A stretch of DNA of 64,000 nucleotides, from NCBI RefSeq assembly GCF_009931435.1, contig NZ_CP043414.1; one strand, 5' to 3'. Numbering within the stretch: position 1 is the first letter of the stretch; every line of letters starts with the position of its first letter. The position numbers and the translations under genes are program-made. Below the pieces are notes generated by a model. The model saw nothing but the letters and a program-made list of their open reading frames with translations. It was not told the DNA's origin and searched no databases. Shown piece by piece: positions 3,841 through 64,000 of the stretch. This DNA comes from Escherichia coli. GTDB lineage: Bacteria > Pseudomonadota > Gammaproteobacteria > Enterobacterales > Enterobacteriaceae.

Positions 3841-5073
3841 ATGGCAAAGGTATCGCTGGAGAAAGACAAGATTAAGTTTCTGCTGGTAGAAGGCGTGCAC
3901 CAAAAGGCGCTTGAAAGCCTTCGTGCAGCGGGTTACACCAACATCGAATTTCACAAAGGCGCGCTGGATGATGAACAATTAAAAGAATCCATCCGCGATG
4001 CCCACTTCATCGGCCTGCGATCCCGTACCCATCTGACTGAAGACGTGATCAACGCCGCAGAAAAACTGGTCGCTATTGGCTGTTTCTGTATCGGAACAAA
4101 CCAGGTTGATCTGGATGCAGCTGCAAAACGCGGGATCCCGGTATTTAACGCACCGTTCTCCAATACGCGCTCTGTTGCGGAGTTGGTAATTGGCGAACTT
4201 CTCCTGCTATTGCGCGGCGTACCGGAAGCCAACGCTAAAGCACACCGTGGTGTCTGGAACAAGCTGGCAGCTGGCTCTTTTGAAGCGCGCGGCAAAAAGC
4301 TGGGTATCATCGGCTATGGTCATATTGGTACACAGTTGGGCATTCTGGCTGAATCGCTGGGAATGTATGTTTACTTTTATGATATTGAAAACAAACTACC
4401 GCTGGGCAACGCCACTCAGGTACAGCATCTTTCTGATCTGCTGAATATGAGCGATGTGGTGAGTTTGCATGTGCCAGAGAATCCGTCTACCAAAAATATG
4501 ATGGGCGCGAAAGAGATTTCACTAATGAAGCCCGGCTCGTTGCTGATTAATGCCTCGCGCGGAACGGTGGTGGATATTCCGGCGCTGTGTGACGCGCTGG
4601 CGAGCAAACACCTGGCAGGTGCGGCAATCGATGTCTTCCCGACGGAACCGGCGACCAACAGCGATCCATTTACCTCTCCGCTGTGTGAATTCGACAACGT
4701 CCTTCTGACGCCACATATTGGCGGTTCGACTCAGGAAGCGCAGGAGAATATCGGCCTGGAAGTTGCGGGTAAATTGATCAAGTATTCTGACAATGGCTCA
4801 ACGCTCTCTGCAGTGAACTTCCCGGAAGTCTCGCTGCCACTGCATGGTGGGCGTCGTCTGATGCACATCCACGAAAACCGTCCGGGCGTGCTGACTGCGC
4901 TGAACAAAATCTTTGCCGAGCAGGGCGTTAACATCGCTGCACAGTATCTGCAAACCTCAGCGCAGATGGGTTATGTGGTTATTGATATTGAAGCTGACGA
5001 AGACGTTGCCGAAAAAGCGCTGCAGGCAATGAAAGCTATTCCGGGCACCATTCGCGCCCGTCTGCTGTACTAA
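3841..5073 (+). CDS. serA: D-3-phosphoglycerate dehydrogenase
   Basis: Track ORF 410 aa; recognised SerA sequence (MAKVSLEKDKIKFLLVEGVHQ...) with C-terminal ACT domain. Confidence 0.95.
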   Translation: MAKVSLEKDKIKFLLVEGVHQKALESLRAAGYTNIEFHKGALDDEQLKESIRDAHFIGLRSRTHLTEDVINAAEKLVAIGCFCIGTNQVDLDAAAKRGIPVFNAPFSNTRSVAELVIGELLLLLRGVPEANAKAHRGVWNKLAAGSFEARGKKLGIIGYGHIGTQLGILAESLGMYVYFYDIENKLPLGNATQVQHLSDLLNMSDVVSLHVPENPSTKNMMGAKEISLMKPGSLLINASRGTVVDIPALCDALASKHLAGAAIDVFPTEPATNSDPFTSPLCEFDNVLLTPHIGGSTQEAQENIGLEVAGKLIKYSDNGSTLSAVNFPEVSLPLHGGRRLMHIHENRPGVLTALNKIFAEQGVNIAAQYLQTSAQMGYVVIDIEADEDVAEKALQAMKAIPGTIRARLLY

Positions 5074-5267: not shown

Positions 5268-5412
5268 TAACGGTAAAGCCCTCACCGAAGCGAGGGCTTG
5301 AAGGAGAAGGGTTATGATGCGACTTGCCATCATACTGATTGTACTGTTACTCATAAGTTTGCCAGCTTATTAACAGTCAGTCACAGGGGAGGAGTCATCC
5401 TCCCTTACCCTT
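5268..5412 (-). ncRNA. sibC: Antisense sRNA SibC (antitoxin RNA overlapping ibsC); ends approximate
   Basis: Minus-strand promoter-like TTGACA (plus 5444-5449) N17 TAATTT (plus 5420-5425); minus-strand terminator hairpin gccctcgcttcggtgagggc + TTT near 5275-5300; fully overlaps ibsC. Confidence 0.5.
5314..5373 (+). CDS. ibsC: Type I toxin, 19-aa hydrophobic peptide (Ibs family)
   Basis: ATG ATG CGA ... TAT TAA encodes MMRLAIILIVLLLISLPAY; RBS aggagaagg 4 nt upstream; matches Ibs toxin family pattern and known serA-ygfA location of ibsC/sibC. Confidence 0.75.
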   Translation: MMRLAIILIVLLLISLPAY

Positions 5413-5473
5413 ACTCACTAAATTAGGTTAAAGAATCAACGATGTCAATCAGGGCGATGCAGGTGTGTCGCCC

Positions 5474-6094: not shown

Positions 6095-6280
6095 AGGGAA
6101 TCTCCGAGATGCCGCCGCAGGCTGTAACCCTTGAACCCTTGGTTCAAGGTGAATGTGTCGTCGCAGTTTTAAGGCTTCTCGGACGGACCGAGCATGCTCA
6201 CCAACCGCGGAGCGCCACATTCTTGTGGTATGAAATATCGGCTCAGGGGACTGGCCCGCTTGCGAACATCTCAGAGAAAT
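6095..6280 (-). ncRNA. ssrS: 6S RNA (RNA polymerase sigma70 holoenzyme-binding regulatory RNA)
   Basis: Reverse complement reads AUUUCUCUGAGAUGUUCGCAAGCGGGCCAGUCCCCUGAGCCGAUAUUUCAUACCACAAGAAUGUGGCGCUCCGCGG..., the recognised 6S RNA sequence; immediately upstream of ygfA. Confidence 0.93.
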
Positions 6281-9945: not shown

Positions 9946-11148
9946 ATGCAAAGTGTTGATGTAGCCATTGTTGGCGGCGGCATGGTGGGGCTGGCGGTTG
10001 CCTGCGGCTTACAGGGGAGCGGCTTACGCGTTGCCGTACTGGAGCAGCGCGTACCGGAACCCCTGGCGGCGGATGCACCACCACAACTGCGCGTTTCGGC
10101 TATCAATGCCGCCAGCGAAAAATTACTCACCCGTCTTGGCGTCTGGCAGGAGATTCTCTCCCGCAGAGCCAGTTGCTATCACGGCATGGATGTGTGGGAC
10201 AAAGACAGTTTTGGTCACATTTCGTTTGACGATCAAAGCATGGGCTATAGCCATCTTGGGCATATCGTTGAAAATTCAGTCATTCACTACGCGCTGTGGA
10301 ACAAAGCACAGCAGTCCTCAGATATCAGCCTGTTAGCCCCTGCAGAATTACAGCAGGTCGCCTGGGGAGAGAACGAAACCTTCCTGACGCTGAAAGACGG
10401 CAGCATGTTAACGGCGCGTCTGGTAATTGGCGCAGACGGCGCTAATTCCTGGTTGCGCAACAAAGCCGATATTCCGCTGACTTTCTGGGATTATCAGCAT
10501 CACGCGCTGGTGGCGACCATTCGCACGGAAGAACCGCATGATGCGGTGGCGCGACAGGTTTTCCATGGCGAAGGCATTCTGGCCTTTTTGCCGCTTAGCG
10601 ATCCGCATCTTTGCTCAATTGTCTGGTCACTGTCCCCAGAGGAAGCACAGCGGATGCATCAGGCAGGCGAAGACGAATTTAACCGCGAGTTAAATATCGC
10701 TTTTGATAATCGCCTGGGCTTATGCAAGGTTGAGAGTGAACGTCTGGTGTTCCCGCTGACTGGGCGTTATGCGCGCCAGTTTGCCGCGCACCGTCTGGCG
10801 CTGGTGGGCGACGCCGCGCATACCATTCACCCGTTGGCGGGGCAGGGGGTGAATCTCGGCTTTATGGATGCTGCAGAGCTGATTGCTGAACTGAAACGGT
10901 TGCATCGTCAGGGTAAAGACATCGGGCAGTACATTTACCTGCGTCGCTATGAGCGTAGCCGCAAGCACAGTGCGGCGCTGATGCTGGCAGGTATGCAGGG
11001 ATTCCGCGATCTGTTTTCCGGGGCTAATCCGGCGAAAAAACTGCTGCGTGATATTGGCCTGAAACTGGCCGATACGCTTCCTGGCGTTAAACCACAACTT
11101 ATCCGTCAGGCAATGGGATTAAACGATTTGCCTGAATGGCTGCGCTAA
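9946..11148 (+). CDS. ubiI: 2-octaprenylphenol hydroxylase UbiI (VisC), FAD-dependent monooxygenase
   Basis: Track ORF 400 aa; paralogous to UbiH, GxGxxG motif VAIVGGGMVGLA. Confidence 0.92.
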   Translation: MQSVDVAIVGGGMVGLAVACGLQGSGLRVAVLEQRVPEPLAADAPPQLRVSAINAASEKLLTRLGVWQEILSRRASCYHGMDVWDKDSFGHISFDDQSMGYSHLGHIVENSVIHYALWNKAQQSSDISLLAPAELQQVAWGENETFLTLKDGSMLTARLVIGADGANSWLRNKADIPLTFWDYQHHALVATIRTEEPHDAVARQVFHGEGILAFLPLSDPHLCSIVWSLSPEEAQRMHQAGEDEFNRELNIAFDNRLGLCKVESERLVFPLTGRYARQFAAHRLALVGDAAHTIHPLAGQGVNLGFMDAAELIAELKRLHRQGKDIGQYIYLRRYERSRKHSAALMLAGMQGFRDLFSGANPAKKLLRDIGLKLADTLPGVKPQLIRQAMGLNDLPEWLR

Positions 11149-11191
11149 AAATTTCTCTTCTGCTGTTTATTTGATACCCATCACACTTTCA

Positions 11192-11220
11192 TCTCCCGGT
11201 TTTTTCGCCGGGAGATTTTC
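11192..11220 (+). terminator. Rho-independent terminator after ubiI
   Basis: Stem tctcccgg...ccgggaga followed by TTTT. Confidence 0.6.
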
Positions 11221-11229
11221 CTCATTTGA

Positions 11230-11594
11230 AATAAACTAATTTCACCTCCGTTTTCGCATTATATTTTCTAATGTCACGAATTTTTGATTTAGTGTTTTTT
11301 GACATTTTTTCAGTTCTTAATGTTGTCTTATTCAAATTAACTTTCTCATCTAATTATCTTTGTATAGAGAATGGTCGTTTTTTGGTTTTTTATTCTGTTG
11401 CAATTTTGACGTTTTTTAACCATAAGCTAATGTGATGTTTAATTTTACCTTATGGTTAACAGTCTGTTTCGGTGGTAAGTTCAGGGAAAAGAGAACGATT
11501 GCGTTGGGGACCGGGAGTGGCTCCGATGCTGGGTTTCGTGGTGATAATTTCACCATGAAAAAGTTGTCAGCCCCGCTTATTCAATGAGGACAAG
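11230..11594 (+). promoter_or_regulatory. gcvTHP control region (long AT-rich leader; known multi-regulator region in E. coli)
   Basis: ~365 bp AT-rich non-coding region upstream of gcvT; exact binding sites not resolved by eye. Confidence 0.5.
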
Positions 11595-16140: not shown

Positions 16141-16286
16141 GATGTCAAACTCAACATTGCCTGATGCACCTCGTTTATCAGGCCTACATAGTCTGTGCAA
16201 TGTATTGAATTTGCACGATCTTGTAGGCTGGATAAGGCGTTCACGCCGCATCCGGCATAATAAAAGCACTTTGTCATCAATAATTT
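16141..16286. repeat. REP/BIME element cluster between gcvP and ygfF
   Basis: Contains gcctgatgcacctcgtttatcaggcctaca and tgtaggctggataaggcgttcacgccgcatccggca, typical REP palindromes. Confidence 0.8.
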
Positions 16287-19744: not shown

Positions 19745-19910
19745 TGCCTTTGTAGGCCTGATAAGACGCGTCAGCGTCGCATCAGGCATCGGATCGCAAC
19801 TGCCGGATGCGGCGTGAACGCCTTATCCGGCCTACGGGCCGCGTCCTTGGTGTGATAAAGGCACCAAATCCCAGGCATGATAAGACGCGTCAGCGTCGCA
19901 TCAGGCAATA
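19745..19910. repeat. REP/BIME cluster (three REP palindromes) between yqfA and ygfZ
   Basis: Repeated gcctgataagacgcgtcagcgtcgcatcaggc and gccggatgcggcgtgaacgccttatccggcctac units. Confidence 0.85.
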
Positions 19911-61709: not shown

Positions 61710-61802
61710 GCATGATTCACCCGTAGCGGTTGCTTCCCGCGCTTCCATAGAAATCCCCTCGATTTGAACATTTGGTTCTTATGGCAAAGATTTAGTCTAA
61801 GC

Positions 61803-61819
61803 AGGCAAGATTTACGCCA
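61803..61819 (-). promoter_or_regulatory. Candidate sigma54 promoter for xdhABC: minus strand CTGGCGTAAATCTTGCC (TGGC-N8-TTGC spacing exact)
   Basis: Read directly: reverse complement of ggcaagatttacgccag; ~90 nt upstream of xdhA ATG; sigma54 EBP gene ygeV adjacent. Confidence 0.5.
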
Positions 61820-62163
61820 GAAACGACGATAAACGTTAGGGGAGGAAGGAAGTGTGATGACGTTAAAAAAATACAGATACGATACGAAACAGGACCCTGA
61901 ATAGGGACAGTGATACGTATCAATATGAGTGGCGATAAAATCAATGTGATAAATCAGGATTATTACGCATCAGGATGGGAAATAGGGTAAAAGAGTCAGG
62001 AACTTCGATACCACCACAGCAAATATTTTGCTTATGATACTTCCCTTTGCCAAATGAAATTAATCTCTTTCTCAATTACCTCGTTTTTCCAGAAGCGAGA
62101 GATTGGGTATCCAGAGGCTGGCTGCTATGATATGGCGTCTTGTTTTTTAAGCGAGGAAAGATT

Positions 62164-62916
62164 TTGAGTGCGGGACGCCTGAATAAAAAATCTCTGGGTA
62201 TCGTGATGTTGTTATCGGTTGGACTGCTTATGGCGGGCTGTTCGGGTAGCAAATCATCCGATACAGGAACGTATTCCGGCTCCGTTTACACCGTGAAACG
62301 GGGGGATACGCTATATCGTATTTCGCGCACCACGGGAACCAGCGTAAAAGAGCTGGCGCGGCTGAACGGCATTTCCCCCCCTTACACCATTGAAGTTGGT
62401 CAGAAACTAAAACTGGGTGGGGCGAAAAGTAGCAGTACACGTAAATCAACCGCCAAATCAACGACCAAAACCGCATCGGTTACACCGTCATCAGCAGTAC
62501 CAAAATCTTCCTGGCCGCCAGTAGGGCAACGTTGTTGGTTATGGCCAACGACAGGGAAAGTTATCATGCCGTATTCGACAGCTGATGGCGGCAATAAAGG
62601 GATTGATATCTCAGCTCCACGGGGTACACCTATTTACGCCGCGGGTGCAGGAAAGGTGGTGTATGTGGGCAACCAGCTGCGTGGCTACGGTAATCTCATC
62701 ATGATTAAACACAGTGAAGATTACATTACGGCTTACGCCCATAATGACACGATGCTGGTAAATAATGGGCAAAGCGTGAAGGCTGGGCAAAAAATCGCCA
62801 CTATGGGGAGCACTGATGCGGCATCGGTTCGCCTGCATTTCCAGATTCGTTACCGTGCAACGGCAATTGATCCGCTACGTTACTTGCCGCCTCAGGGCAG
62901 CAAGCCAAAATGCTGA
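62164..62916 (+). CDS. ygeR: LysM-domain / M23 (LytM) peptidase-family lipoprotein
   Basis: Track ORF 62140..62916; likely TTG start giving (M)SAGRLNKKSLGIVMLLSVGLLMAGCSGS lipobox; LysM motif YTVKRGDTLYRISR; M23 C-terminal domain. Start codon uncertain (62140 or 62164). Confidence 0.85.
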   Translation: MSAGRLNKKSLGIVMLLSVGLLMAGCSGSKSSDTGTYSGSVYTVKRGDTLYRISRTTGTSVKELARLNGISPPYTIEVGQKLKLGGAKSSSTRKSTAKSTTKTASVTPSSAVPKSSWPPVGQRCWLWPTTGKVIMPYSTADGGNKGIDISAPRGTPIYAAGAGKVVYVGNQLRGYGNLIMIKHSEDYITAYAHNDTMLVNNGQSVKAGQKIATMGSTDAASVRLHFQIRYRATAIDPLRYLPPQGSKPKC

Positions 62917-62994
62917 TGGCGAATTAATCAGCAGTCAGCAGCGCGGCACTTGCTAAGGAGAGCGTAAGGTTTATAATGCCTTACGCATCTCGAA

Positions 62995-63068
62995 GCGGGC
63001 GTAGTTCAATGGTAGAACGAGAGCTTCCCAAGCTCTATACGAGGGTTCGATTCCCTTCGCCCGCTCCA
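62995..63068 (+). tRNA. glyU: tRNA-Gly (anticodon CCC)
   Basis: GCGGGCGTAGTTCAATGGTAGAACGAGAGCTTCCCAAGCTCTATACGAGGGTTCGATTCCCTTCGCCCGCTCCA: 7-bp acceptor stem, anticodon loop CTTCCCAAG, T-loop GGTTCGATTCC, encoded CCA end. Confidence 0.95.
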
Positions 63069-63301
63069 ATTTATCTTCACCTCATCAATCTGCCATTTTT
63101 GCTGTATCTGATTTTCTATATTATCTTAATTCAATTGCTTCAGACTTTTCACAATCGCTGTAACACTTCCCCATTTTTTTGTAAATAAAAAGCGTTTACG
63201 CAATGCAATCCTTTTGTAACAACCCAGGTAAAATACCTTATTTTCAAGTTGTTAAATAAGTGGTTATCTACGCTTTTAACAAACGATAGATGGAATATTT
63301 T

Positions 63302-64000
63302 ATGAAAGGGAAATCTGCATTAACTCTTCTGCTCGCTGGTATATTTTCATGCGGCACATGCCAGGCGACAGGGGCAGAAGTGACGAGTGAATCTGTATTT
63401 AACATTCTTAATTCCACAGGGGCGGCAACTGATAAAAGTTATTTATCGTTAAATCCAGATAAGTATCCTAATTATCGTCTTCTGATTCACTCAGCCAAAT
63501 TAAAAAATGAAATAAAGAGCCACTATACCAAAGACGAAATTCAAGGATTGTTAACATTAACAGAAAATACACGAAAGTTAACGTTGACGGAGAAACCCTG
63601 GGGAACATTTATTCTTGCTTCTACTTTCGAAGATGACAAAACAGCGGCAGAAACCCACTATGATGCTGTCTGGCTGAGGGATAGTTTATGGGGCTATATG
63701 GCATTAGTATCAGATCAGGGAAATAGTGTAGCCGCAAAAAAGGTTCTGCTCACTCTGTGGGATTATATGTCTACGCCCGACCAGATTAAGCGGATGCAGG
63801 ACGTCATTAGCAACCCAAAACGACTGGATGGTATTCCTGGGCAAATGAATGCTGTGCATATCCGATTTGACAGCAACTCCCCCGTGATGGCAGATGTGCA
63901 GGAAGAAGGCAAGCCGCAGCTGTGGAACCATAAACAAAATGATGCGTTAGGTCTTTATCTTGATCTCCTTATACAAGCAATCAATACTGGTACTATTAAC
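63302..64000 (+). CDS. Putative secreted/lipoprotein with GH15 (glucoamylase-like) N-terminal signature, 5-prime partial (continues beyond window)
   Basis: ATG at 63302, open to window end; signal peptide MKGKSALTLLLAGIFSCGTC; conserved-looking WLRDS motif; AT-rich codon usage unlike the core genes. Not in ORF track because edge-truncated. Confidence 0.6.
   Translation, partial: MKGKSALTLLLAGIFSCGTCQATGAEVTSESVFNILNSTGAATDKSYLSLNPDKYPNYRLLIHSAKLKNEIKSHYTKDEIQGLLTLTENTRKLTLTEKPWGTFILASTFEDDKTAAETHYDAVWLRDSLWGYMALVSDQGNSVAAKKVLLTLWDYMSTPDQIKRMQDVISNPKRLDGIPGQMNAVHIRFDSNSPVMADVQEEGKPQLWNHKQNDALGLYLDLLIQAINTGTIN

What the first reader, a model, noticed from the sequence alone, without database searches (positions are those of the whole stretch)
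62995..64000. tRNA-Gly(CCC) followed by an abrupt AT-rich region with a GH15-like lipoprotein gene: island boundary
Immediately 3-prime of the tRNA the composition switches to strongly AT-rich sequence (63069-63300) and a gene with atypical codon usage begins at 63302. tRNA 3-prime ends are classical integration sites for genomic islands; in E. coli the glyU locus is where the ETT2 island sits. The content of this island lies beyond the window.
Basis: partly seen in the sequence, partly recalled or inferred. Interest (0 to 1): 0.6.

Follow-up and report, generated by a model that had tools for sequence, protein, structure and literature searches.

The report
glyU tRNA and ETT2 island edge

Summary
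Observation confirmed, interpretation supported, nothing new in kind. tRNA-Gly(CCC) lies at 62995-63068. GC then falls from about 0.51 to 0.305 (63069-63301) and 0.42 in the ORF from 63302. The last 932 bp are the most AT-rich 932-bp stretch in the 64 kb. In the closest E. coli relative the ORF is a 536-aa GH15-like protein (published as pkgA/ygeQ, ECs3736-3737). It is followed by a GhoT/OrtT-family gene and the ETT2 genes (eivF, sctC, sctV, sctN ...) up to yqeG: about 27.5 kb at 35.8% GC. Among 5,426 complete E. coli genomes, 3,354 share the window's junction and 1,173 lack ETT2. Others carry IS-associated truncations. Reviews already describe ETT2 as a 29.9-kb, 36.9% GC island next to glyU. 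Three refinements. ETT2 has no integrase and no repeat of the tRNA 3' end. The ETT2-free junction lies 142-150 bp past the tRNA (63211-63218), and E. albertii homology resumes at 63228. The tRNA 3' end is nevertheless a working attachment site: a 12.7-kb integrase-bearing phage-like element with a 20-bp att duplication sits between glyU and ETT2 in 258 genomes. The GH15-like protein has a Sec/lipoprotein-type signal, which argues against its proposed effector role. Interest is low.

The parts
62164..62916 (+). actS (ygeR), a LysM/M23 amidase-activator lipoprotein gene. It is the last core gene before the tRNA.
   Evidence: ORF list. Annotated as actS in relatives. An actS homologue lies within 400 nt upstream of this same tRNA, typically about 83 nt, in 74 of 96 assessable Enterobacterales species.
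62950..62977 (+). Sigma-70-like promoter site (TTGCTA-16 nt-TATAAT), 17 nt upstream of the tRNA. It is the likely glyU promoter.
   Evidence: Consensus scan, 10 of 12 matches. This is a consensus match only, not proof of function.
62995..63068 (+). glyU, tRNA-Gly(CCC).
   Evidence: ARAGORN. Rfam RF00005 at 71.6 bits. The identical 74-mer occurs in at least 120 Enterobacterales species.
63049..63068 (+). The 20-nt tRNA 3' end, GATTCCCTTCGCCCGCTCCA. In other E. coli strains it serves as the att core for a 12.7-kb integrase-bearing phage-like element. It is single-copy in this window.
   Evidence: In strain 4012 the 20-mer is duplicated at L005 1152-1171 and 13837-13856, flanking the element. After the second copy the sequence resumes as window 63069 onward. 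The attL junction is present in 258 of 5,426 genomes.
63069..63210 (.). AT-rich spacer retained in ETT2-free E. coli. It has no homologue after the tRNA in E. albertii or in the other genera examined.
   Evidence: Megablast break at query position 1211, which is window 63210. Junction sequences. No E. albertii homology between the tRNA and window 63228. Downstream sequences in other genera are unrelated.
63211..63228 (.). Left junction zone of ETT2. The ETT2-free breakpoint lies at 63211-63218, where 8 nt can be aligned to both flanks. E. coli/E. albertii island homology starts at 63228.
   Evidence: blastn of L003 against L004. blastn of L126 against L001.
63229..63301 (+). AT-rich 5' untranslated and promoter region of the GH15-like gene. 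It is conserved with E. albertii.
   Evidence: Alignment. GC is 0.305 over 63069-63301. No promoter was called by the consensus scan.
63302..64000 (+). First 233 codons of the GH15-like exported protein gene (pkgA/ygeQ family, ECs3737+ECs3736, EC042_3075). It is the terminal gene of ETT2, and codons 1-17/22 form the signal peptide. The gene runs off the window.
   Evidence: Translation. The full-length 536-aa orthologue in relatives is annotated as GH15. Pfam PF00723 E = 5.8e-5. AlphaFold2 model with pLDDT 90.7. Foldseek hits to the phosphorylase kinase alpha/beta GH15-like domains and to GH15 enzymes. Review table in PMC3977695.

Best explanation
[quoted passage not shown] Its first gene is a GH15-like (alpha/alpha)6-barrel protein with a Sec-type, probably lipoprotein, signal peptide. 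The secretion-system genes lie beyond the window. In present-day E. coli the island is immobile: it has no integrase and no att repeats. It varies among strains through loss and IS-associated decay. About one fifth of genomes lack it, with a single uniform junction 142-150 bp past the tRNA. The tRNA 3' end itself remains a live attachment site for an unrelated integrase-bearing phage-like element, which inserts between glyU and ETT2 in some strains. What is shown: the identity of the locus, its composition, its polymorphism, the absence of integrase and att, and the fold of the protein. What is inferred: that the window's own genome continues into ETT2, that the protein is lipidated and enzymatically active, and how the island first arrived.
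For: The tRNA and the GC drop are confirmed. In the closest relative the order is tRNA, GH15, GhoT/OrtT, eivF, sctC, gatekeeper, sctV, sctN ... ygeH, ygeG, yqeK, yqeJ, yqeI, yqeH, then yqeG. That island is 35.8% GC against 49.6% for its right flank. 3,354 of 5,426 genomes share the window's junction and 1,173 have the ETT2-free tRNA-142 bp-yqeG junction. Other breakpoints carry IS5, IS3 or IS1. Published descriptions match: 29.9 kb, 36.9% GC, adjacent to glyU, ORFs ECs3703-ECs3737, with ECs3736/pkgA described as 'phosphorylase kinase and glucoamylase' (PMC3977695; PMC11068852). The glucoamylase homologue EC042_3075 is reported at one end of ETT2 (PMC2808357). Phylogroup B2 is reported to lack ETT2 (PMC7058095). 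E. albertii has the same order, actS-tRNA-GH15-GhoT-eivF-sctC. The relative has no annotated integrase and no second copy of the tRNA 3' end, even allowing 3 mismatches, and no direct repeats flank the island. For the protein: invariant WEE motif, signal peptides and lipobox cysteines in Gram-negative homologues, and fold evidence.
Against: The window stops 699 bp into the first island gene, so the island content in this particular genome is inferred from relatives. No genome in the collection is 100% identical; the best match is 99.7% over 2 kb and about 98.5% over the rest of the window. Some strains keep the 5' end of the GH15 gene but have lost most or all of the secretion genes, so the window's genome could carry a degraded ETT2. 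GH15 membership rests on a weak Pfam hit plus fold similarity with TM-scores around 0.5. No activity is known.
Confidence: 0.95

Rival explanations
1. ETT2 is a classical tRNA-targeted integrative island. A tyrosine integrase inserted it into the glyU 3' end, and the integrase and distal att repeat were later lost. On this view the 142-bp spacer after the tRNA is island DNA, and ETT2-free strains arose by deletion.
For: The island abuts a tRNA gene whose 3' end is demonstrably used as attB by another element, with a 20-bp duplication. Across Enterobacterales, several recurrent and unrelated sequence families follow this tRNA, which marks it as an integration hotspot. The spacer 63069-63210 is AT-rich like the island, and nothing homologous follows glyU in other genera. 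E. albertii carries ETT2 at the same locus, which is read in the literature as acquisition before the species split and so implies later loss in ETT2-free E. coli (PMC4700944).
Against: There is no integrase gene and no tRNA 3'-end copy, even with 3 mismatches, anywhere in the 40 kb of the relative or across the E. albertii island. The E. coli/E. albertii island homology begins about 160 bp from the tRNA rather than at it, and the two spacers are unrelated.
Confidence: 0.3
2. The ETT2-free state (tRNA + 142 bp + yqeG) is the ancestral empty site. ETT2 inserted about 150 bp downstream of glyU by a mechanism that does not target the tRNA, so the proximity to the tRNA is incidental.
For: One uniform junction is shared by 1,173 genomes. 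It lies within 18 bp of the point where E. coli and E. albertii island homology begins. Ren et al. 2004, as cited in PMC7058095, proposed that B2 never had ETT2.
Against: E. albertii has ETT2 at the same locus (PMC4700944). The 8-nt stretch alignable to both flanks fits a single illegitimate-recombination deletion equally well. In E. albertii the ETT2-free strains are clearly secondary deletions that retain about 280 bp of the GH15 gene. The right-end divergence test was uninformative.
Confidence: 0.25
3. There is no island. The AT-rich stretch is just a long regulatory intergenic region followed by an ordinary low-GC core gene.
For: Intergenic regions in E. coli are commonly AT-rich. For example, the xdhA-actS spacer at 61800-62100 is 0.37-0.41 GC.
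Against: The region is absent from 22% of E. coli genomes. It continues into about 27 kb of 35.8% GC DNA encoding a type III secretion system. The gene's GC3 of 0.39 is below that of all its neighbours.
Confidence: 0.02

Closest known systems
[quoted passage not shown]
   Same: Same chromosomal site, between glyU and yqeG. Same low GC: 35.8-39% here, 36.9% published. Same terminal glucoamylase-like gene and the same downstream gene order in the closest relatives. Same strain-to-strain attrition.
   Different: Nothing differs in kind. In the closest relatives the GH15-like gene is one intact 536-aa ORF, whereas Sakai is listed with two ORFs, ECs3736 (1059 bp) and ECs3737 (606 bp). The window holds only the first 699 bp of the island's coding sequence.
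Classical tRNA-associated integrative islands and prophages (P4-type integrase plus a direct repeat of the tRNA 3' end)
   Same: Located next to a tRNA gene, with foreign base composition, virulence-type cargo and presence/absence polymorphism.
   Different: ETT2 has no integrase and no att duplication, and its junction is 142-160 bp from the tRNA. The separate 12.7-kb element at this tRNA in 258 genomes does have all of these features.
Salmonella SPI-1 (inv/spa/prg/org type III secretion system)
   Same: The ETT2 genes downstream of the window are annotated and published as homologues of invF, invG, invE, invA, invC, spaO-S, prgH-K and orgA.
   Different: None of these genes is inside the window. 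That SPI-1 lies at a different, non-tRNA chromosomal site is my own knowledge and was not tested here. No GH15-like gene is listed among the SPI-1 homologues in the review table.
GH15 glycoside hydrolases and the GH15-like N-terminal domains of phosphorylase kinase alpha/beta subunits
   Same: (alpha/alpha)6-barrel fold. Foldseek gives E = 4e-11 to PhK beta/alpha, 6e-9 to a bacterial GH15 glycosidase (5z3a/7c24) and 4e-8 to glucoamylase 1ayx. There is a Pfam PF00723 hit. The Trp-Glu-Glu motif is invariant. From my own knowledge, this motif corresponds to the catalytic-acid motif of glucoamylases.
   Different: Sequence similarity to characterized GH15 enzymes is too low for HMMER to detect in the PDB; only the PhK alpha/beta domains match. 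There is no starch-binding domain and no N-terminal beta-sandwich of the bacterial glucoamylase type. Substrate and activity are unknown. The protein is exported through a Sec signal in Gram-negative members.

Membership tests
ETT2 genomic island (left end) | Located immediately next to the glyU tRNA-Gly(CCC) gene, on the side away from actS/ygeR | tested here: met
   The tRNA is at 62995-63068 with actS upstream. The same arrangement occurs in ETT2-bearing relatives. Published as adjacent to glyU (PMC3977695, PMC11068852).
ETT2 genomic island (left end) | G+C content far below the chromosome (published 36.9% against 50.8%) | tested here: met
   Window 63069-64000 is 0.392 GC against 0.513 for the rest of the window. 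The relative's island is 0.358.
ETT2 genomic island (left end) | Terminal ORF is the glucoamylase/phosphorylase-kinase-like gene (pkgA, ECs3736-3737, b2862-b2863/ygeQ, EC042_3075) | tested here: met
   The window ORF is annotated as GH15 or YgeQ in E. coli genomes. The review table and the EAEC 042 paper describe it.
ETT2 genomic island (left end) | SPI-1-like type III secretion genes (eiv, epa, epr) follow | not testable with these tools
   The window ends at 64000, inside the first gene. The genes are present in the closest relative and in E. albertii. Some strains that keep the 5' end of the gene have lost them.
ETT2 genomic island (left end) | Presence/absence and attrition polymorphism among E. 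coli strains | tested here: met
   3,354 genomes have the window-type junction and 1,173 are ETT2-free. IS5, IS3 and IS1 breakpoints occur in others.
Integrase-mobilised tRNA-integrated island | Tyrosine integrase gene at one end of the island | tested here: not met
   No integrase is annotated between glyU and yqeG in the relative. The only integrase at this locus belongs to the separate 12.7-kb element in strain 4012.
Integrase-mobilised tRNA-integrated island | Direct repeat of the tRNA 3' end at the distal boundary | tested here: not met
   No second copy of 10 nt or more, and no 20-mer copy allowing 3 mismatches, in 40 kb. No flanking direct repeats. The E. albertii island gives the same result.
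Integrase-mobilised tRNA-integrated island | Island DNA begins exactly at the tRNA 3' end | tested here: inconclusive
   Composition changes right after the tRNA. However, the ETT2-free junction is at 63211-63218 and E. albertii homology starts at 63228. The origin of the 142-bp spacer is unresolved.
Glycoside hydrolase family 15 | Match to the family profile (Pfam PF00723) | tested here: met
   E = 5.8e-5, 22.6 bits, residues 94-401 of the 536-aa orthologue. This is a weak hit. NCBIfam gives nothing above its cutoff.
Glycoside hydrolase family 15 | (alpha/alpha)6-barrel catalytic domain | tested here: met
   AlphaFold2 model with pLDDT 90.7 and pTM 0.91. Foldseek probability 1.00 to the PhK alpha/beta GH15-like domains, a bacterial GH15 glycosidase and fungal glucoamylases, with query TM-scores of 0.44-0.54.
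Glycoside hydrolase family 15 | Catalytic general acid and general base glutamates | tested here: inconclusive
   W267-E268-E269 is invariant in 37 homologues, as are E341, E431 and E491. The WEE motif aligns to WER in PhK alpha. Equating it with the glucoamylase catalytic acid rests on my own knowledge. The base residue was not mapped.
Bacterial lipoprotein | Signal peptide ending in a lipobox with an invariant Cys | tested here: inconclusive
   MKGKSALTLLLAGIFSC has IFSC with Cys17. E. albertii has VLAC and Commensalibacter has LLAC, while other homologues have signal peptidase I-type or no signal. Phe at position -2 is atypical. No dedicated predictor was available, and lipidation cannot be tested here.

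The most novel reading that the evidence does not exclude
ETT2 may not have reached glyU by tRNA-targeted integration. Its conserved left end lies about 150 bp from the tRNA in E. coli. In E. albertii, by contrast, the island is preceded by a wholly different tRNA-Gly(CCC) allele (55/74 identical) and an unrelated spacer. That allele is 100% identical to the one next to actS in the Klebsiella michiganensis/oxytoca complex. Together with the higher divergence of the island (68-78%) than of the flank (85-93%), this leaves room for the glyU-ETT2 region of the two species having separate histories. The possibilities are independent acquisition, or block replacement of the tRNA locus by horizontal transfer, rather than the single shared acquisition assumed in the literature.
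Probability: 0.15. Interest if true: 0.35.

Novelty: already known. Interest (0 to 1): 0.1.

Why it matters
The finding itself matters little, because it re-identifies a textbook accessory region of E. coli. ETT2 has been described since the O157:H7 genome papers and has been reviewed repeatedly. The value of the check is that it closes the question for the scan. The low-GC edge of the window is the known ETT2 boundary, not a new island. The small additions may help anyone annotating this locus. These are the exact ETT2-free junction, the absence of integrase and att for ETT2 alongside a live att site used by another element, and the Sec/lipoprotein signal that argues against the proposed effector role of the GH15-like protein.

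Tried and rejected
1. I searched for an att duplication or degenerate copy of the tRNA 3' end, and for direct repeats flanking ETT2, in E. coli and in E. albertii. None was found.

2. I tested whether the right end of the island could be placed by a step in E. coli/E. albertii divergence. yqeH is 82% identical, yqeG 86% and yqeF 85%, and the intergenic region is only 54-62%. There is no clear step, so the test was uninformative.

3. I used the single genome-contig scan to find what follows glyU in Escherichia outgroups. E. albertii was reached instead through protein look-ups.

4. I looked for a hidden RNA gene or terminator in the AT-rich spacer. Rfam found only the tRNA at E <= 1, and no terminator-like site was found.

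5. I looked for the E. albertii-type tRNA on phage or viral contigs. There were no hits.

6. I suspected that the two ORFs after the tRNA in Klebsiella michiganensis were yqeI/yqeJ homologues. Only the winged-helix domain of the first resembles YqeI (26% identity, E = 1e-17). The second is unrelated to YqeJ, so the idea was dropped.

7. NCBIfam gave no family above its cutoff for the GH15-like protein or the 59-aa GhoT/OrtT-like protein.

8. Ren et al. 2004 (PMC415751) is not held in the library. Its content is cited only as reported by later papers.

Full report
**Observation**

The window contains a single tRNA gene, tRNA-Gly(CCC), at 62995-63068 on the + strand (ARAGORN; Rfam RF00005 at 71.6 bits). 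A sigma-70-like promoter site, TTGCTA-16-TATAAT, lies at 62950-62977.

Upstream are ordinary E. coli core genes. These are actS/ygeR at 62164-62916, then xdhABC and ygeV. The rest of the window is also collinear core, from scpA through serA, ssrS, gcvTHP, recJ-prfB-lysS and the xdh/ygf purine cluster.

Directly after the tRNA the GC content drops. It is 0.305 for 63069-63301 and 0.421 for the ORF 63302-64000, against 0.513 for positions 1-62994. The final 932 bp are more AT-rich than any 932-bp window in positions 1-62994. Only 0.24% of 233-bp windows are as AT-rich as the intergenic part.

The ORF from ATG 63302 remains open for 233 codons to the window end. Its GC3 is 0.39, against 0.45-0.54 in the neighbouring genes.

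**What it is**

Megablast of 62000-64000 against 5,426 complete E. coli genomes finds the locus in 5,413 of them. In 3,354 genomes the match runs through the tRNA into the ORF, which is annotated there as 'glycoside hydrolase family 15 protein' or YgeQ.

The best match is strain 24A16CRGN010, 99.7% identical over these 2 kb. There the gene is 536 codons long. It is followed by these genes:
- a 59-aa GhoT/OrtT-family gene;
- eivF, sctC, a gatekeeper gene, sctV and sctN;
- the spaM/N/O-like genes and sctRSTU;
- the prgH-K-like and orgA-like genes;
- regulators, ygeH, ygeG and yqeK, yqeJ, yqeI, yqeH;
- then the core gene yqeG.

[quoted passage not shown] In that relative the island is 35.8% GC, against 49.6% for its right flank.

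Reviews describe ETT2 as a 29.9-kb, 36.9% G+C island adjacent to glyU. It comprises ECs3703-ECs3737 in O157:H7 Sakai. The last ORFs are ECs3736/pkgA, described as 'phosphorylase kinase and glucoamylase', and ECs3737 (PMC3977695; PMC11068852). The EAEC 042 genome paper notes the glucoamylase homologue EC042_3075 at one end of ETT2 (PMC2808357).

**Polymorphism**

An ETT2-free junction (tRNA, about 142 bp, then yqeG) covers at least 80% of a junction probe in 1,173 of 5,426 genomes. This agrees with reports that phylogroup B2 lacks ETT2 (PMC7058095).

Other states are IS-associated truncations:
- IS5 at about window 63255, followed by yqeG;
- IS3 at about window 63831;
- K-12-like ygeQ with internal deletions and IS1.

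This is the published 'mutational attrition'.

**Boundary and mechanism**

ETT2 lacks the classical signature of integration at a tRNA.
- No integrase is annotated between glyU and yqeG.
- The tRNA 3' end has no second copy of 10 nt or more in 40 kb.
- The 20-mer has no second copy even allowing 3 mismatches.
- No direct repeats flank the island. The E. albertii island gives the same result.

The ETT2-free junction is not at the tRNA 3' end. It lies at window 63211-63218, where 8 nt can be aligned to both flanks. The right breakpoint is in the yqeH-yqeG spacer.

Independently, homology between the E. coli and E. albertii islands begins at window 63228. The E. albertii spacer after the tRNA is unrelated to the window's. 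So the conserved left end of ETT2 lies about 150 bp from the tRNA.

The origin of the AT-rich spacer 63069-63210 is unresolved. It could be old island DNA or E. coli-specific chromosome. The right-end divergence test gave no clear step.

**glyU as a live attachment site**

In strain 4012 a 12.7-kb element sits exactly between the tRNA and the spacer. It encodes a tyrosine integrase, a major head protein, and tape-measure-like and tail-fibre-like proteins. It is bracketed by a 20-bp direct repeat of the tRNA 3' end, GATTCCCTTCGCCCGCTCCA. After the second repeat the sequence resumes as window 63069 onward. The attL junction of this element occurs in 258 of 5,426 genomes.

Across at least 120 Enterobacterales species the identical 74-nt tRNA is followed by many unrelated sequences. 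Several of these recur across genera, which is what an integration hotspot looks like.

**The gene**

The GH15-like family is broad. Members occur in E. albertii (76% identity), Yersinia enterocolitica (about 60%), Commensalibacter, Elusimicrobiota, Clostridiales, Bifidobacterium and Bdellovibrionales. It is therefore not specific to type III secretion.

The evidence for the family assignment is as follows.
- Pfam PF00723 matches weakly, at E = 5.8e-5.
- HMMER against the PDB finds only the GH15-like domains of the phosphorylase kinase alpha and beta subunits.
- An AlphaFold2 model (pLDDT 90.7, pTM 0.91) matches those domains (Foldseek E = 4e-11), a bacterial GH15 glycosidase (5z3a/7c24) and fungal glucoamylases.
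- A W267-E268-E269 motif and several other acidic residues are invariant across 37 homologues.

From my own knowledge, WEE corresponds to the glucoamylase catalytic-acid motif. On that basis an active glycosidase is likely but unproven.

The N-terminus MKGKSALTLLLAGIFSC looks like a Sec signal with a lipobox cysteine. E. albertii (VLAC) and Commensalibacter (LLAC) have equivalents, and Gram-positive members have no signal. Export through Sec argues against the tentative 'ETT2 effector' label in PMC2808357.

**Side observation**

All ten complete E. albertii genomes examined carry a tRNA-Gly(CCC) at this locus that is only 55/74 identical to the E. coli one. It sits 145 nt after actS rather than about 80 nt.

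The E. coli-type tRNA next to actS is the common state, seen in 74 of 96 assessable species. The E. albertii allele, plus 8 nt of 3' flank, is 100% identical to the tRNA next to actS in contigs of the Klebsiella michiganensis/oxytoca complex. It is absent from the viral contig collection.

[quoted passage not shown] This leaves open, at low probability, that the glyU-ETT2 regions of the two species do not share a single history.

Two E. albertii genomes are ETT2-free through a secondary deletion that retains about 280 bp of the GH15 gene.

**Verdict**

The feature is already known. Interest is low.

Noticed in passing
L126 9585-9658 (E. albertii GCA_027567795.1); L138-L147 at 3901-3974; L149 3782-3863 and L150 2418-2497 (Klebsiella michiganensis/oxytoca complex): All ten E. 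albertii genomes examined have a tRNA-Gly(CCC) next to actS that is only 55/74 identical to the E. coli/window glyU. The differences are spread over the whole molecule, and the spacer that follows is unrelated. The allele plus 8 nt of flank is 100% identical to the actS-adjacent tRNA in K. michiganensis-complex contigs. The E. coli-type tRNA is the one next to actS in 74 of 96 assessable species. This suggests replacement of the tRNA locus by horizontal transfer.
   Followed up: partly
L005 1172-13856 (E. coli strain 4012, NZ_CP103626.1); att core corresponds to window 63049-63068: A 12.7-kb integrase-bearing phage-like element (major head, tape-measure-like and tail-fibre-like proteins) is inserted exactly at the glyU 3' end, in tandem with ETT2. 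It is flanked by a 20-bp att duplication. Its attL junction is present in 258 of 5,426 E. coli genomes. Whether it is a small prophage or a satellite was not determined.
   Followed up: partly
L006-L125, sequence immediately 3' of the conserved 74-nt tRNA: Across Enterobacterales genera, a few recurrent sequence families follow glyU. One example is AACTCAAGTCTCCTGAAGTCTACC...GATAAATCAGCAGTTATAGCATTC, seen in Citrobacter, Klebsiella, Hafnia, Cedecea and others. These imply several widespread mobile elements that target this tRNA. They were not characterized.
   Followed up: no
L143 and L145 (E. albertii CP110258.1, CP099890.1), about 4597-4890: These are ETT2-free E. albertii strains. The deletion keeps the first ~280 bp of the GH15 gene, then about 290 bp of unrelated sequence whose origin was not checked, then resumes just past yqeH. 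It is a secondary loss, and its endpoints differ from those of the E. coli ETT2-free junction.
   Followed up: yes
L004 2200-2379 (67 bp downstream of the GH15 gene in the closest relative); also L126 11687-11866: A 59-aa GhoT/OrtT-family membrane toxin gene (ydcX-like, ECs3735) lies between the GH15 gene and eivF. It is conserved in E. albertii. No antitoxin partner was looked for.
   Followed up: no
L128 (Yersinia enterocolitica GCA_046763825.1) 10001-11581: The ~60%-identical GH15-like homologue in Y. enterocolitica lies beside an invasin-like gene and about 10 kb from a gene with a type III translocator domain (PF06511). This hints at a loose recurring association with SPI-1-type secretion loci.
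   Followed up: no
window 5298-5448 (-), 6097-6280 (-), 16180-16222 (-), 19755-19832: Rfam finds SIB RNA (the antitoxin of an Ibs/Sib type I toxin-antitoxin pair), 6S RNA (ssrS), ES036 and a naRNA4/REP-type element. All are ordinary E. coli features. Between serA and the ibs/sib locus the closest relative carries an IS200/IS605 tnpA insertion of about 700 bp that the window lacks.
   Followed up: no
window 1-64000 against NZ_CM148325.1: The window is 99.7% identical to strain 24A16CRGN010 over its last 2 kb but only 97.8-98.7% over the preceding 62 kb. No genome in the collection is identical. This points to a recombination mosaic at the island edge, or to a source lineage that is not represented in the collection.
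   Followed up: no
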